This document shows positions 6,001-9,000 of a stretch of 14,764 bases of DNA, in pieces; the stretch's first letter is position 1, and the number at the start of each line of letters is the position of its first letter. Origin of the DNA: a virus (Duplodnaviria; Heunggongvirae; Uroviricota; Caudoviricetes); IMG/VR virus record IMGVR_UViG_2609459864_000006; one strand, written 5' to 3'. Position numbers: made by a program.

Positions 6001-9000
6001 ACAGGGTTCGCAGTACCGGCGCATACGGAAACCGGCGAGCCTTTCGGCTCCCCTGCCCAGCCCACCATAATTCTGGCGTGCGTGAGCGCGGACGATAAAA
6101 AAGACGCTGGCGCGTCATATATCGCCGTATGCAATTCCGGGCTGCGACCCCCGGCACCCGCTTTATAAGGTGCAGAGACAGTGTAACGTCCCGAAATTGC
6201 AGAATCAATATTTGGTCTTGAAATGATCATATAGCTGCTGATATCTTTAGAACTGTTCTTGGATGTTTCGGAGCCGTTTTATGCGAAACAGCTCCCCGTT
6301 ATTGATGTTGAGTGAGCCGGGTTACTCCCGGCTTTTTTTCACCGCTGCCAACCAATAACCTGAAATAACCCCATTTTCGGGTGATACCAGCGAGTCCCTC
6401 GCGGTTCTGCTTCCTCCATAACCCGATAAAAAGCAGCCATAAACGGTTCCACAGCAACAATTGCGCGACGTGACAACAATCCGTCCGGCGTCATGAACTC
6501 ATGTGTGTCTGTAGGAATTTGATAGGCGTTCACCAGATTGCGGCATTTATCATCTGACAAACCGGTTTTTGCTTTCAGTTGGCGATATCCGGCATAGCCC
6601 TCACGAATAGTGCCCTTTTTAATTTGCTCGACTGTTTCAGCAACGTGGCTGACTTTTTCTTCCACCTGAGTGATCCGTTTCTGTTGGCGAACGGCTTCAA
6701 GAGCCATCGCGGCAACCATTTCGATTTCGCTCATTGGCTTACGGATCTGTTCTTCCAGTTCGCGCCAGCGATCTACCAGGCGAGCTGTGAATTCAGGACA
6801 GAGCTGTGCGACGACAATGATGCTGTCGCGCTTACCTTGTTCACCTTCGAATACATACGCGCTAGAAAATCGGCGAGGCCCAAGTGATTGTTTATTCTCA
6901 ATTTCCACAGTCTGTGGAAATTGGATGATTCCCTTTTTAGCCAGTGTTTCAATAGTTCTCTTAACACTATCTGGTCGGCTTCCCACCAGCTCTGCGATCT
7001 CAACGCTGGTCATGGATGCTTTGCCGTTAAAAATTGCGGTGTTCATTGTTGGTCTCCTGTGGGCTTGTCATCTTCTGTATTCGCTAGACTTGGGTTTGTA
7101 TATGGAATGCTCGGATCCAGATGACAAAGAATGGCAACATCCTCCGGAACACCTCGCGTTTTCCACTTTCCAACACCTTGACTGCCACGAGGCCTTCCTT
7201 TCTTTGGGAACCTGCGACCAATAGCGGCATTGGTTTTAAATTGAATTTTTAATATTTCATAAAGGGTCATTCTTTAGTCTCACACCAGATACTTTGTTAT
7301 CCAACGATGTTAACCACAGGAATCCAAAGTATCAAGAAATTCTGTTACTTTAGTATCAACAACCATGAGAGGAGAAGAAAAATGAAGTCTTTAGGTGAAC
7401 GTCTCATCAACGCACGGCAAAAAGCTGGGTTAACACAAGATGCGTTGGCTAAAAAAGCTGGGATCACCAGAGTTGCAATCAGTAAAGCCGAGCAAGGCCT
7501 TACAAAAAGTTTCAACGGTGACACCCTTTTTAAAGTTGCAGCTGCACTGCGGTGTTCACCGCAGTGGCTTCAGAACGGAGATGAAAAAGATAAGCATTGG
7601 GAAAATAATGTTAAGAGCTGCCCACAGAGAGACACAGCACACTCTTACCCTGTAATTAACTGGGTTCAGGCAGGATTATTCGCAACTTCTGGTGATGACT
7701 ACAACATGTATGATCAGGATAATTGGAGGCATTCTGTAAAATACGCTGGTGAGAGGGGGTTCTGGCTGGAAGTGCACGGAGACTCAATGACTTCGCCCGT
7801 AGGAATAACATTTCCTGAAGGAATGTCGATCCTTGTCAACCCAGATAAAGAAGTTTTTTCAGGGTGTTACGTCATCGCCAGAAAAAAATCCACCAATGAA
7901 GCAACATTCAAAAAATATATTTCTGACATGGGAAAGGCGTTTCTAAAGCCCCTTAATCCACAATATCCAATCATAGAAATGGACAATGATTGCGAAATAG
8001 TAGGTGTTGTGGTTGATGCCAGGTGGGATATTTTCTGACCAGACACAAAACACAAAAAGAAACCAAAGTATCAAAAATCACTTGCCACACCTTGATACCT
8101 TAGTTACCATAAAACAAAGTTCGTAACTGAGGTATCATCTCATGATCAATAAAGCTACAACTCTTGACTGTCTCGAAGAACTGAAAAACCTCGGCAGCCT
8201 CATTACACTAATAGCAAAAGCAACACCTGATGCTACGCTCTCTAGCGATATAGAGTCATGCGCAGGACTGGCATGGGATATGACAAATAGCATATCCAGA
8301 AAGCTATCGTCAGCAATGCTTTTACAGAATAAAAATTCTGCAATCAACAACCGTCTTCGCACCCAACGCGAAGCCTGCGGCTTAACAACCGCCGAACTCG
8401 CCAGGCTGCTCGATCTCGATGAAGAAATTATCATCCAGTGGGAGAGCGGAGAGTATGAACCAACTATCAGTATGCTTATCCCACTGGCAAATATTCTTGG
8501 CTGCGATCCGATGTGGCTGTTAACTGGTAAACCAACAGGTGGGGATACTTGCGCATGAAAAACTGTGATGCTTACCATATTTGTCTCATTGGTGAATTGC
8601 TTGATTTCATACAAAAAAGCACTGCGCGCAATAATAAAAATATAACATATGGTGATCTGGTAATAATTTCAGAGGATATAAAGAGCATCGCTCTTAAATT
8701 CAAGAGCGACGCGAGTATTGATGACGCTATTTACGCTTATCTTGCGAAAATAATTGACGGATCCAAAATCCAGCCTCTGGATGAACCTCGTCAGTGAAAA
8801 ACTCCTTTGATGAAGATGAGAACTGCTTCATAAACTTTACTTTATCTTCAGGTGAAACTACCTGACGAATTAATGCGGAGATAGCAACTTTGTGCCAAAT
8901 TAATTCTTTTTTGAGTTCTGAAATCTCTTTTTCGAGTTGCTCTGCGTTAATCATTTATCCTCCATTGAGAGCTGAATTGAAAATGGGGACCAACACGCGG

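What the first reader, a model, noticed from the sequence alone, without database searches (positions are those of the whole stretch)
8142..8954. AT-rich accessory module next to the repressor: HTH regulator with unusual N-terminal domain, a coupled small gene, and a convergent overlapping gene
Directly after the cI-like gene and its OL-like operators lies a compositionally distinct block, visibly more AT-rich than its neighbours. It encodes (i) a 138-aa protein whose XRE-type HTH is C-terminal and preceded by a 65-aa domain of unknown function, (ii) an 80-aa ORF coupled by an ATGA overlap, and (iii) a 75-aa minus-strand ORF with a strong GGAGGA RBS that overlaps gene (ii) by 71 bp. The repressor-proximal slot is where lambdoid phages carry exclusion/defence cargo (rexAB, sieB in lambda/P22), and none of the three proteins resembles those. 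This is my best candidate for an undescribed prophage-encoded system, such as superinfection exclusion, abortive infection or a toxin-antitoxin-like pair.
Basis: partly seen in the sequence, partly recalled or inferred. Interest (0 to 1): 0.65.

Follow-up and report, generated by a model that had tools for sequence, protein, structure and literature searches.

The report
Prophage early regulator plus antisense moron cassette
This stretch of a phiP27-like E. coli prophage is not one three-gene system: it holds a conserved early DNA-binding regulator gene followed by a small optional cassette carrying two short genes of unknown function, so it is fairly ordinary phage mosaic DNA with one interesting regulatory detail.

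Summary
All three ORFs are at the stated coordinates, but the block is not compositionally distinct: 41.3% GC against 41.5% for its neighbourhood.

The window is a phiP27-like lambdoid prophage.
- **8142-8558** is phiP27 L10, the first gene behind a cI-operator-flanked PL-like promoter. It has a near-invariant XRE HTH. Its N-terminal helical-hairpin domain is swapped together with the cI type (28 of 28 loci). This backbone gene usually occurs without the other two ORFs.
- **About 8563-9046** is an optional cassette found in 54 of 5426 complete E. coli genomes. It sits between two CATGAAAAA repeats at the junction of the HTH gene and L08.
- **The 75-aa minus-strand gene** shows purifying selection. 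It has its own sigma-70-like promoter, a roughly 90-nt leader, a GGAGGA ribosome-binding site and a terminator-like hairpin.
- **The 80-codon plus-strand ORF** always accompanies it and is probably coding, on weaker evidence.
- **The leader** occurs in 972 of 5426 genomes, in front of at least 9 unrelated small ORFs. It is unannotated and not in Rfam.

No homology links any of these proteins to Rex, SieB, toxin-antitoxin or known defence proteins. Most likely the cassette is a lysogen-expressed moron that is silenced by head-on PL transcription. Its function is unknown.

The parts
8039..8141 (+). OL/PL-like control region: promoter-like TTGCCA-17-TACCAT (8082-8110) flanked by operator-like GTATC repeats (8063-8074, 8091-8098, about 8131-8140)
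   Evidence: promoter scan, 9 of 12; the 12-mer CCAAAGTATCAA at 8063 equals that at 7324 in the cro/cI intergenic region, and inverted copies are present. No terminator is predicted after cI in this immunity type.
8142..8558 (+). 138-aa early regulator (phiP27 L10; PGAP WP_000608406, 'helix-turn-helix domain-containing protein'). The N-terminal helical hairpin is residues about 1-70 (8142-8351) and the XRE HTH is residues 72-126.
   Evidence: phrog_4739 over the full length; phrog_4836, labelled 'CII-like regulator', over aa 48-136. AF2 pLDDT 77 with helices 2-27 and 31-78 followed by a 5-helix HTH. Foldseek matches only the HTH part, to the P22 c2 and 434 Cro DNA-binding domains. 10 of 12 substitutions against phiP27 are at third codon positions.
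8554..8562 (.). Left copy of the 9-bp direct repeat CATGAAAAA. It holds the HTH stop and the ORF80 start, and is the left cassette junction.
   Evidence: In the cassette-less locus L009 a single CATGAAAAA joins the HTH stop to the L08 start.
8555..8797 (+). ORF80: an 80-codon ORF translationally coupled (ATGA) to the HTH gene. It is not annotated by PGAP or in phiP27. It matches phrog_23054 (unknown function).
   Evidence: Open in 18 of 18 alleles. pN/pS is 0.25 in 8555-8725 and 0.94 in the overlap with ORF75. Codon periodicity p=0.08. It always co-occurs with ORF75.
8685..8712 (-). Terminator-like hairpin 15 nt after the ORF75 stop (11-12 bp stem, 4-6 nt loop, then UCUUUAUAUC), lying inside ORF80
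   Evidence: The stem is perfect in other alleles. The window allele has G.U pairs that are valid only in the minus-sense RNA. The U-tract is weak.
8727..8954 (-). ORF75: a 75-aa gene (PGAP WP_000606214, hypothetical; phrog_20080). It is predicted to form three helices, with a coiled-coil-like N-terminus and no hydrophobic segment.
   Evidence: pN/pS is 0.26-0.28 and third-position excess has p=0.0016. It is intact in every allele except phiP27, which has +T in an A6 run.
8955..9046 (-). Conserved leader (5' UTR, roughly +1 to the ATG) of ORF75. It has two hairpins (CCGGAU..GUGUCCGG and GACCACACG-N6-CGUGUUGGUC) and an anti-SD stretch (C/U)CUCCAUU that can pair with AAUGGAG(G).
   Evidence: It is present in 972 of 5426 E. 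coli genomes (1621 places, never annotated). It is less variable than the ORFs (6.5% against 15% of sites). It is not in Rfam.
9046..9074 (-). Sigma-70-like promoter of ORF75: TTGAGA (9074-9069), 17 nt, GATAAT (9051-9046). The predicted start is about 9040.
   Evidence: 10 of 12, the joint-best score in the 6900-9700 scan. Both hexamers are invariant in 18 alleles, and the variable sites 9060 and 9065 lie in the spacer. In Rac/Qin-type prophages a different promoter-like sequence sits at the same distance from the leader.
9133..9141 (.). Right copy of the direct repeat CATGAAAAA, holding the start of the L08 homologue. This is the right cassette junction, 579 bp from the left copy.
9134..9499 (+). 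Next backbone gene of the PL operon (phiP27 L08, 121 aa, phrog_5451). In cassette-less phages it is the partner of the HTH gene.

Best explanation
The interval holds two separate things in the early-left (PL) region of a phiP27-like lambdoid prophage.

(1) 8142-8558 is the first gene of the PL operon. It encodes an XRE-type DNA-binding protein. Its HTH is almost invariant among heteroimmune relatives. Its N-terminal helical-hairpin domain, inferred to mediate dimerisation or partner binding, belongs to the exchangeable cI/operator immunity module. The gene sits behind a promoter flanked by cI-type operators, so it is inferred to be made on induction or infection as an early regulator. Its DNA target is unknown.

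(2) About 8563-9046, plus the promoter up to 9074, is an optional 0.5-kb cassette. It lies between two copies of CATGAAAAA at the junction of the HTH gene and L08. Its core is a minus-strand moron: a sigma-70-like promoter, an approximately 86-92-nt conserved structured leader, a GGAGGA site, the 75-aa gene and a hairpin terminator. On the plus strand an 80-codon ORF takes over the ATGA coupling to the HTH gene and converges on the 75-aa gene with a 71-bp overlap.

Inferred logic: in the lysogen PL is repressed and the 75-aa protein is made. After induction, PL transcription runs head-on through the cassette. No plus-strand terminator is predicted there. This would silence the 75-aa gene by collision and antisense RNA while producing ORF80, which may counteract the 75-aa protein.

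Shown here: the anatomy, the presence-or-absence pattern, the co-occurrence, the selection signals and the spread of the leader. Inferred only: promoter activity, timing of expression, any ORF75/ORF80 interaction and any phenotype.
For: Identity and context: the region is 99.9% identical to E. coli O111:H21 strain 15A and about 95% to phiP27 L08-L11.

HTH family:
- 156 clusters were found, most in E. coli and one in Salmonella. They carry at least 4 N-domain types on an HTH that is at least about 90% identical.
- N-domain type and cI type pair 1:1 in 28 of 28 loci.
- The common long form has two tandem HTHs. The 138-aa form equals P0007 (218 aa) with an in-frame deletion between PLAN(V/A)LGCDP repeats.

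Cassette:
- Alignments with L006, L008 and L009 define the junctions.
- Of 80 HTH-bearing IMG/VR loci, 17 have ORF80, ORF75 and the leader together, about 33 have a 166/167-aa tail variant, and about 11 have a direct ATGA overlap between the HTH gene and L08.
- The cassette is present in 54 of 5426 complete genomes, always whole, and with at least 4 immunity types.

Transcription-unit signals: the promoter scores 10 of 12 and a hairpin follows the ORF. Both hexamers are invariant across alleles. No plus-strand terminator is predicted between 8110 and 9700.

Selection.

Leader:
- The same 90 nt up to the ATG precede at least 9 unrelated small ORFs in 132 instances.
- The minus-sense RNA folds better than shuffled controls (z -1.95), while the plus-sense does not (z -0.18).
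- The G.U intermediates seen are valid only in the minus sense.

Precedent for an antisense overlapping pair that couples a prophage function to the life cycle: Tha/Ith in S. aureus phage 80alpha (PMC11087260).
Against: - There are no expression data. Promoter and terminator are consensus matches only, the U-tract is weak, and other cargos behind the same leader mostly lack a recognisable terminator.
- The leader structure is compatible with the alignment (98% of cells paired) but has almost no covariation. One compensatory pair was seen, and shuffles reach the observed score in 61 of 500 trials.
- ORF80 evidence is modest (p=0.08 for periodicity). Its start codon is the borrowed L08 start. 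Its last 24 codons evolve as if unconstrained (pN/pS 0.94).
- In this immunity type no terminator follows cI. PRM read-through could therefore express the HTH gene, and antisense to ORF75, even in the lysogen.
- The ORF75 model has low confidence (pLDDT 67) and matches no known fold.
Confidence: 0.6

Rival explanations
1. One reading: HTH regulator, ORF80 and ORF75 form one prophage-encoded defence, exclusion or toxin-antitoxin-like system, with the HTH protein as its dedicated regulator or antitoxin.
For: The genes are adjacent. The HTH gene and ORF80 share an ATGA overlap. XRE HTH proteins often serve as antitoxins or defence regulators, and PADLOC gives generic HTH hits to RmrA, CapH and similar models. 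The position is immunity-proximal.
Against: The HTH gene occurs in thousands of contigs without ORF80 or ORF75. The same ATGA junction couples it to L08 when the cassette is absent. The cassette combines with at least 4 different N-domain and immunity types. ORF80 and ORF75 match no toxin, antitoxin or defence model. The PADLOC hits cover only the generic HTH.
Confidence: 0.08
2. Only ORF75 is a gene. ORF80 is a fortuitous open frame created when the cassette landed just after the L08 start codon, so PL-driven translation merely runs into cassette DNA.
For: ORF80 begins with the duplicated CATGAAAAA of L08. PGAP and the phiP27 authors do not call it. An 80-codon open frame in 37% GC DNA is not very unlikely by my own estimate. 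Its codon periodicity gives p=0.08. Its C-terminal third shows no constraint. It has no homologues outside this cassette.
Against: It is open in all 18 distinct alleles at about 9-14% divergence. Its pN/pS of 0.25 is the lowest of six frames in the non-overlapping part. Other gene callers predict it, and PHROGs holds it as family 23054.
Confidence: 0.3
3. The conserved 92-nt element acts in the plus-sense PL transcript rather than as the ORF75 leader. It could be an RNA processing or antitermination signal, or simply a conserved linker for homologous recombination. The small ORFs next to it would then be passengers of no consequence.
For: The element lies inside PL operons (the dicB operon in Rac/Qin-type prophages) and is more conserved than the flanking ORFs. 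K-12 Qin keeps half of it between ydfC and dicF without any cargo. Conserved boundary sequences are a known feature of lambdoid mosaicism, from my own knowledge.
Against: Conservation runs exactly from about +1 of a promoter-like site through the SD to the ATG of the minus-strand ORF in all 132 instances. Plus-sense folding is no better than shuffled sequence (z -0.18). The wobble intermediates would be A.C mismatches in the plus sense. ORF75 is under purifying selection.
Confidence: 0.1

Closest known systems
phiP27 genes L10, L09 and L08 (Stx2e phage phiP27, AJ298298 / NC_003356)
   Same: These are the same genes in the same order. L10 is 97.8% identical to the 138-aa protein. The DNA of 8040-9140 is 94.7% identical.
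   Different: All are annotated 'unknown' or 'hypothetical'. phiP27 has +T in an A6 run of ORF75, so its L09 is called in another frame (5809-5988 of L002). ORF80 is not annotated there.
Phage morons (independent promoter-gene-terminator units inserted between backbone genes; reviewed in PMC3594210, listed)
   Same: The cassette is present or absent between otherwise collinear genes. It has its own promoter-like and terminator-like signals and slightly lower GC. The expectation is expression from the prophage.
   Different: One conserved leader is shared by at least 9 unrelated cargo ORFs. The unit lies antisense inside the PL operon and overlaps a plus-strand ORF convergently. Expression has not been shown.
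Lambda rexAB and the sieB genes of lambda and P22 (immunity-proximal exclusion genes)
   Same: The general neighbourhood, next to the repressor on the PL side, and the idea of a lysogen-expressed accessory gene.
   Different: No sequence or profile similarity. ORF75 and ORF80 are small with no hydrophobic segment that I could see. The cassette lies downstream of PL, whereas rexAB lies between cI and PL.
Tha/Ith 'noncontiguous operon' of S. aureus prophages (PMC11087260)
   Same: An overlapping antisense gene pair near the repressor in which opposing transcription makes the two products mutually exclusive between lysogeny and lysis. This is the logic proposed here.
   Different: There is no homology and no HEPN domain. 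The orientation relative to cI differs. There is no experimental evidence here for either a defence function or an inhibitor function.
XRE/Cro-C1 repressors (P22 c2, 434 Cro, DicA)
   Same: The HTH domain has the five-helix fold (Foldseek TM about 0.9 normalised to the target, 32% identity to the P22 c2 DNA-binding domain). It is 36% identical to the DicA N-terminus.
   Different: The domain order is reversed: the HTH is C-terminal, behind a helical hairpin that matches no structure. The NCBIfam DicA score of 44.9 is far below the cut-off of 101. The gene is not the immunity repressor, because a LexA/S24-type cI sits upstream.

Membership tests
XRE / Cro-C1 HTH (Pfam HTH_3, PF01381) | Profile match above the curated cut-off | tested here: met
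   43.8 bits against a cut-off of 23, residues 72-126
XRE / Cro-C1 HTH (Pfam HTH_3, PF01381) | Five-helix DNA-binding fold as in 434 Cro and P22 c2 | tested here: met
   AF2 model with pLDDT 77. Foldseek match to 3jxb (P22 c2) with rmsd 0.9 A over 63 columns and TM 0.89 normalised to the target.
XRE / Cro-C1 HTH (Pfam HTH_3, PF01381) | Sequence-specific DNA binding | not testable with these tools
   Needs EMSA or ChIP. No conserved target site was identified.
DicA-type prophage repressor (NCBIfam NF007257) | Full-length match above the cut-off, with an N-terminal HTH and a C-terminal oligomerisation domain | tested here: not met
   44.9 bits against a cut-off of 101. Only the HTH aligns (aa 64-129 to DicA 2-67), and the domain order is reversed.
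Lambda CII-like activator (the label of phrog_4836) | Gene lies right of cro in the PR operon and activates PRE/PI | tested here: not met
   The gene is the first of the PL operon. The PHROG label is an annotation, not a tested function. Activity cannot be tested here.
Moron (independent accessory transcription unit) | Present or absent between otherwise collinear backbone genes | tested here: met
   17 of 80 HTH-bearing loci and 54 of 5426 genomes, always the whole cassette.
Moron (independent accessory transcription unit) | Own promoter and own terminator | tested here: inconclusive
   The promoter-like site scores 10 of 12 with invariant hexamers. A hairpin follows the ORF but its U-tract is weak. 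These are consensus matches only.
Moron (independent accessory transcription unit) | Base composition different from the flanks | tested here: inconclusive
   ORF80 and ORF75 are 37% GC against 39-42% for the neighbours. The leader is 53%.
Moron (independent accessory transcription unit) | Expressed from the repressed prophage | not testable with these tools
   Needs RNA-seq or reporter fusions in a lysogen.
Type II toxin-antitoxin pair (XRE antitoxin plus toxin) | The two genes co-occur as a conserved operon | tested here: not met
   The HTH gene occurs mostly without ORF80, and the same ATGA junction couples it to L08.
Type II toxin-antitoxin pair (XRE antitoxin plus toxin) | The partner belongs to a known toxin family | tested here: not met
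   ORF80 and ORF75 give no significant hit in Pfam, NCBIfam, PADLOC or PDB.
Type I toxin-antitoxin (small hydrophobic toxin plus antisense RNA) | Short hydrophobic membrane peptide as the toxin | tested here: not met
   Both proteins are 75-80 aa, charged and predicted helical and soluble, with no hydrophobic stretch (sequences; model).
Known exclusion or defence proteins (RexA/B, SieB, PADLOC models) | Profile similarity to the family | tested here: not met
   No hit for ORF80 or ORF75. Only generic HTH hits for the 138-aa protein.
Tha/Ith-like noncontiguous (antisense) operon | Gene with its own promoter embedded antisense in an operon, overlapping a gene of the opposite strand | tested here: met
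   Architecture only: searches show the 71-bp convergent overlap and the minus-strand promoter inside the PL operon.
Tha/Ith-like noncontiguous (antisense) operon | One product is a defence effector and the other its inhibitor | not testable with these tools
   There is no homology to Tha (HEPN) or Ith. Genetics is needed.
Rfam RNA families (for the leader) | Covariance-model match | tested here: not met
   No family at gathering score in the window. No credible match at E<=5 in 7900-9700.

The most novel reading that the evidence does not exclude
The approximately 90-nt leader is an undescribed cis-regulatory RNA. It would be a translational gate that hides the Shine-Dalgarno sequence. In about 18% of complete E. 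coli genomes it would control a swappable set of at least 9 unrelated small prophage proteins, all transcribed against the early operons of lambdoid prophages. In this cassette, the 75-aa lysogen-expressed protein and the 80-aa PL-expressed protein would be a function/anti-function pair, such as an exclusion factor and its self-immunity factor, switched by convergent transcription as in Tha/Ith.
Probability: 0.15. Interest if true: 0.65.

Novelty: new member of a known kind. Interest (0 to 1): 0.35.

Why it matters
As submitted, the finding is mostly ordinary. It describes hypothetical genes of a sequenced phage family (phiP27 L10 and L09) in the mosaic early-left region.

Two points are worth keeping.
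- The 75-aa/80-aa pair is a clean, small, optional cassette found in about 1% of complete E. coli genomes. It is easy to delete or clone, so it is a cheap test case for whether antisense-embedded prophage genes act as life-cycle-coupled accessory functions.
- The unannotated leader is far more widespread than this cargo, with 972 of 5426 genomes, including O157:H7, O26, O145 and O104:H4 strains, and up to 4 copies per genome. It marks a set of small prophage proteins with no known function. If it is a true regulatory RNA, it would give one handle on the expression of all of them.

The N-domain/cI co-variation in the HTH protein also suggests an immunity-specific partner that could be tested.

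Tried and rejected
- **Profile searches.** Pfam, PHROGs, NCBIfam and PADLOC scans of all three proteins and of other cargos gave only the generic HTH and PHROGs of unknown function. One cargo family is YmfI/GhoS-like.
- **Homology searches.** ORF75 and ORF80 have 5-6 clusters each, all E. coli. A full HMMER scan of 1.84 billion representatives with ORF75 found only E. coli relatives, plus a repeat-motif hit in a 612-aa kinase-like protein (P0133) that I regard as uninformative.
- **Structure.** The ORF75 model has low confidence and finds nothing in BFVD. PDB sequence searches were empty. The N-domain of the HTH protein matched no PDB fold.
- **Rfam.** Nothing was found for the leader.
- **Covariation test of the leader.** The alignment is too conserved to prove structure.
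- **Species-representative genomes.** Exact 24-mer and 19-mer scans found no enterobacterial hit, only chance matches in high-GC organisms.
- **Terminators after other cargos.** These were mostly not found.
- **HTH plus ORF80 as a type II TA pair.** Rejected on the co-occurrence data.
- **'AT-rich island'.** Rejected on the GC figures.
- **phiP27 frameshift as evidence that ORF75 is a pseudogene.** Rejected, because all other distinct alleles examined are intact.
- **Literature.** No paper describing L10, L09, the cargos or the leader was found. The phiP27 genome paper is not held in the library.
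Full report
**What the window is.** The ORF map and the similarity searches place the window in a phiP27-like lambdoid prophage of E. coli.
- The tested stretch 8040-9140 is 99.9% identical to E. coli O111:H21 strain 15A and 94.7% identical to the Stx2e phage phiP27, where it covers genes L11 to L08.
- With the plus strand running toward the integrase (13451-14764), the order is: Q (5266-5664, minus), Rha (6339-7046, minus), a cro-like gene (7043-7270, minus), a LexA/S24-type cI (7307-8038, plus; PGAP starts it at 7382), then the interval in question.
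- Between cI and the first ORF lies a PL-like promoter (8082-8110). It is surrounded by repeats that recur in the cro/cI intergenic region: CCAAAGTATCAA at 8063 and 7324, plus inverted copies.
- The block therefore lies downstream of PL, in the position lambda gives to N. It is not between cI and PL, where rexAB sits.

**Check of the observation.** The three ORFs, the ATGA overlap, the GGAGGA site and the 71-bp convergent overlap are all as described. The compositional claim is not.
- The interval is 41.3% GC against 41.5% for 7307-10700.
- The HTH gene is 46.3%.
- Only ORF80 and ORF75 fall to 37%.

**The 138-aa protein.**
- It is phiP27 L10 (97.8% identical) and PGAP calls it a 'helix-turn-helix domain-containing protein'. 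It matches phrog_4739 over its full length, and phrog_4836 (labelled 'CII-like regulator') over its HTH half.
- The protein search found 156 clusters, most in E. coli and one in Salmonella. Some stand for 1000 or more contigs.
- The family has a near-invariant HTH (RTQREACGLTTAELARLLDLDEEIIIQWESGEYEPTISMLIPLAN) behind an N-terminal domain of at least four very different types.
- In 28 of 28 loci the N-domain type goes with one cI type. This means the mosaic joint lies at the domain boundary and the N-domain belongs to the immunity module.
- The commonest forms (215-231 aa) carry two tandem HTH domains. The 138-aa form equals the 218-aa P0007 with an in-frame deletion between the repeated PLAN(V/A)LGCDP motifs.
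- AlphaFold (pLDDT 77) predicts a helical hairpin (helices 2-27 and 31-78) followed by a five-helix HTH. Foldseek matches only the HTH, to the P22 c2 and 434 Cro DNA-binding domains.
- Substitutions against phiP27 are 10 of 12 at third codon positions, so it is a real, constrained gene.
- It is not DicA (44.9 bits against a cut-off of 101, with reversed domain order). It is also not the immunity repressor.
- I read it as an early PL-encoded DNA-binding regulator whose N-domain dimerises or contacts an immunity-specific partner. That function is inferred, not shown.

**The cassette.**
- Aligning the window with relatives shows three states at the end of the HTH gene:
  - In L009 the HTH stop overlaps the start of the L08 homologue (GCATGAAAAAG).
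  - In L006 and L008 the HTH protein has a longer tail (166/182 aa) and L08 follows after about 130 bp.
  - In the window, phiP27, L007 and others, 579 bp lie between two copies of CATGAAAAA (8554-8562 and 9133-9141).
- Against L006 the unique segment is about 8528-9046.
- Among the 80 best HTH-bearing IMG/VR loci, 17 carry this insert, always with ORF80, ORF75 and the leader together. About 33 have the long-tail state and about 11 have the direct overlap.
- In complete E. coli genomes the ORF80/ORF75 segment is present in 54 of 5426, always whole. It occurs with at least four immunity types.
- The HTH gene is therefore backbone. The other two ORFs form an optional unit.

**Are the two small ORFs genes?** I compared 18 distinct alleles.
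- ORF75 has pN/pS of 0.26-0.28 and 16 of 25 variable sites at third positions (p=0.0016). It is intact everywhere except phiP27. There an extra T in an A6 run shifts the frame, which explains why phiP27's L09 is annotated in a different frame.
- ORF80 is open in all 18 alleles. In its non-overlapping part, pN/pS is 0.25 against 0.63-0.92 in the other five frames.
- Against that, ORF80's codon periodicity is only suggestive (13 of 27, p=0.08). Its last 24 codons, which overlap ORF75, evolve without constraint (0.94). Its start codon is the duplicated L08 start.
- I put ORF80 at roughly 60-70% likely to be a real gene. PGAP and the phiP27 authors do not call it, whereas other gene callers and PHROGs (family 23054) do.

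**The ORF75 transcription unit and its leader.**
- On the minus strand the scan finds TTGAGA-17-GATAAT (9074-9046, 10 of 12, the joint-best score in the region scanned). It also finds a hairpin 15 nt after the ORF75 stop (8712-8685) followed by a weak U-tract.
- Both promoter hexamers are invariant in all alleles.
- The roughly 92 nt between the -10 element and the ATG (9046-8955) are more conserved than the ORFs: 6.5% of sites vary, against about 15%.
- This same leader occurs in 972 of 5426 complete E. coli genomes, at 1621 places and up to 4 per genome. It is never annotated.
- Most copies lie in Rac/Qin-type prophages between the dicA-like repressor/ydfA genes and dicF/dicB, again directly upstream of a minus-strand ORF.
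- In 132 instances from IMG/VR and the fetched loci, the leader, SD and ATG are followed by at least 9 unrelated small ORFs of 57-101 aa. They include a YmfI/GhoS-like family and a zinc-ribbon-like protein. All lack a known function.
- Homology between contexts starts at about +1 of the promoter, and a different promoter-like sequence sits at the same distance in the Rac/Qin context.
- The leader can form two hairpins, plus a helix that pairs (C/U)CUCCAUU with the SD region AAUGGAG(G).
- The minus-sense RNA folds better than shuffled sequence (z -1.95), while the plus-sense RNA does not (z -0.18). The few G.U intermediates are valid only in the minus sense.
- The alignment is too conserved to prove the structure: 98% of cells pair, there is one compensatory change, and shuffles reach the observed score in 61 of 500 trials.
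- It matches nothing in Rfam.
- K-12 Qin keeps only the 5' half of the element, between ydfC and dicF. Exact-word scans found it in no other species representative.

**What the small proteins look like.**
- ORF75 is predicted as three helices at low confidence (pLDDT 67), with a heptad-like N-terminus and no hydrophobic segment. It finds no fold or sequence relative outside E. coli prophages.
- ORF80 likewise has no relatives outside this cassette.
- Neither matches any PADLOC, toxin, antitoxin, Rex or SieB model.

**Most likely mechanism.**
- Shown: an optional cassette; a constrained minus-strand gene with promoter-like, leader and terminator-like elements; a co-occurring plus-strand ORF; no predicted plus-strand terminator between PL and L08.
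- Inferred: in the lysogen cI shuts PL and ORF75 is expressed from its own promoter, possibly gated by the SD-sequestering leader. On induction, PL transcription passes head-on through ORF80 into ORF75 and its promoter, so ORF75 expression falls and ORF80 is made.
- This is the logic demonstrated for the Tha/Ith antisense pair of S. aureus prophages (PMC11087260). The resemblance is one of architecture only.
- One caveat: this immunity type has no terminator after cI, so PRM read-through might reach the block in lysogens.

**Verdict.** There is an accessory unit with no known relatives in an immunity-proximal slot. However, it comprises two ORFs, not three. It is not a compositional island, and nothing yet points to exclusion, abortive infection or toxin-antitoxin activity. 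It is a new member of a known kind (a moron-type cassette next to an XRE early regulator). The more interesting by-product is the widespread unannotated leader that fronts many different small prophage genes.

Noticed in passing
window 8955-9046 (-); for example L004 2501-2592, L005 2501-2592, L011 2264-2355: A leader of about 90 nt that runs up to the start codon is conserved in 972 of 5426 complete E. coli genomes (1621 places, never annotated, not in Rfam). It precedes at least 9 unrelated small ORFs, always antisense to an early operon. L011 carries a second copy in front of an 81-aa ORF between Rha and cro.
   Followed up: partly
L138 (E. coli K-12 Qin) 6103-6140, between ydfC and dicF: K-12 keeps only the 5' half of the leader and the adjoining promoter region. 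The cargo and the SD half are replaced by ydfC, so K-12 data cannot be used to study the element.
   Followed up: partly
L002/L003 (phiP27) 5688-5988; window equivalent 8906: The phiP27 reference has an extra T in an A6 run of the 75-aa gene. Its annotated L09 (5809-5988) is therefore a different, probably wrong, frame. All other distinct alleles examined are intact, so this is either a sequencing error or a private mutation.
   Followed up: yes
window 8142-8558 compared with P0007 (218 aa): The 138-aa protein is an in-frame deletion derivative of a two-HTH form, produced by recombination between the repeated PLAN(V/A)LGCDP motifs. The two-HTH forms (215-231 aa) are the most abundant clusters.
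   Followed up: partly
window 9134-9499 (+): PGAP annotates only the C-terminal 68 aa (9293-9499) of the L08 homologue. In cassette-less phages the HTH stop overlaps the upstream ATG (ATGA), which supports the full 121-aa reading.
   Followed up: partly
window 5985-6173 (-), inside ORF 5667-6230 (-): Rfam finds a C4 antisense RNA (83 bits) and isrK (59 bits) just upstream of the Q-like gene (5266-5664). They lie inside a 187-aa ORF that is homologous to phiP27 L16, which RefSeq calls a 'transcriptional regulator'. That CDS may be a miscall over non-coding RNAs of an anti-Q type module.
   Followed up: no
window about 5700-6340, compared with L001 1-4712: The replication genes present in the closest relative (an HTH O-like gene, an ATP-binding protein and DnaB helicase, located between Rha and Q) are missing from the window. 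This prophage may be deleted and defective.
   Followed up: no
window 580-5076: In the slot between the Q gene and the lysis genes, where Stx phages carry stx by my own recollection, the window has an OmpC/NmpC-like porin gene (3934-5076, plus) in a 30-37% GC patch. It also has three tRNAs (2926-3168, minus), the sRNA STnc100 (2656-2846, minus) and a 617-aa NanS-p-like esterase ORF (580-2433, minus).
   Followed up: no
P0133 (612 aa, metagenomic): Residues 19-61 of the 75-aa protein (ISALIRQVVSPEDKVKFMKQF) resemble a motif repeated about 10 times (I..L....VSPEEANKYDKRF) in a kinase-like protein. This is probably a chance or short-motif similarity.
   Followed up: no
window 7307-8038 (+): The longest cI ORF is 243 aa, starting at 7307. 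PGAP and the SD GAGGAGAAG favour the ATG at 7382, giving 218 aa. This cI is not followed by a terminator, unlike the cI genes of the other immunity types examined (L007, L009, L011, L015).
   Followed up: partly
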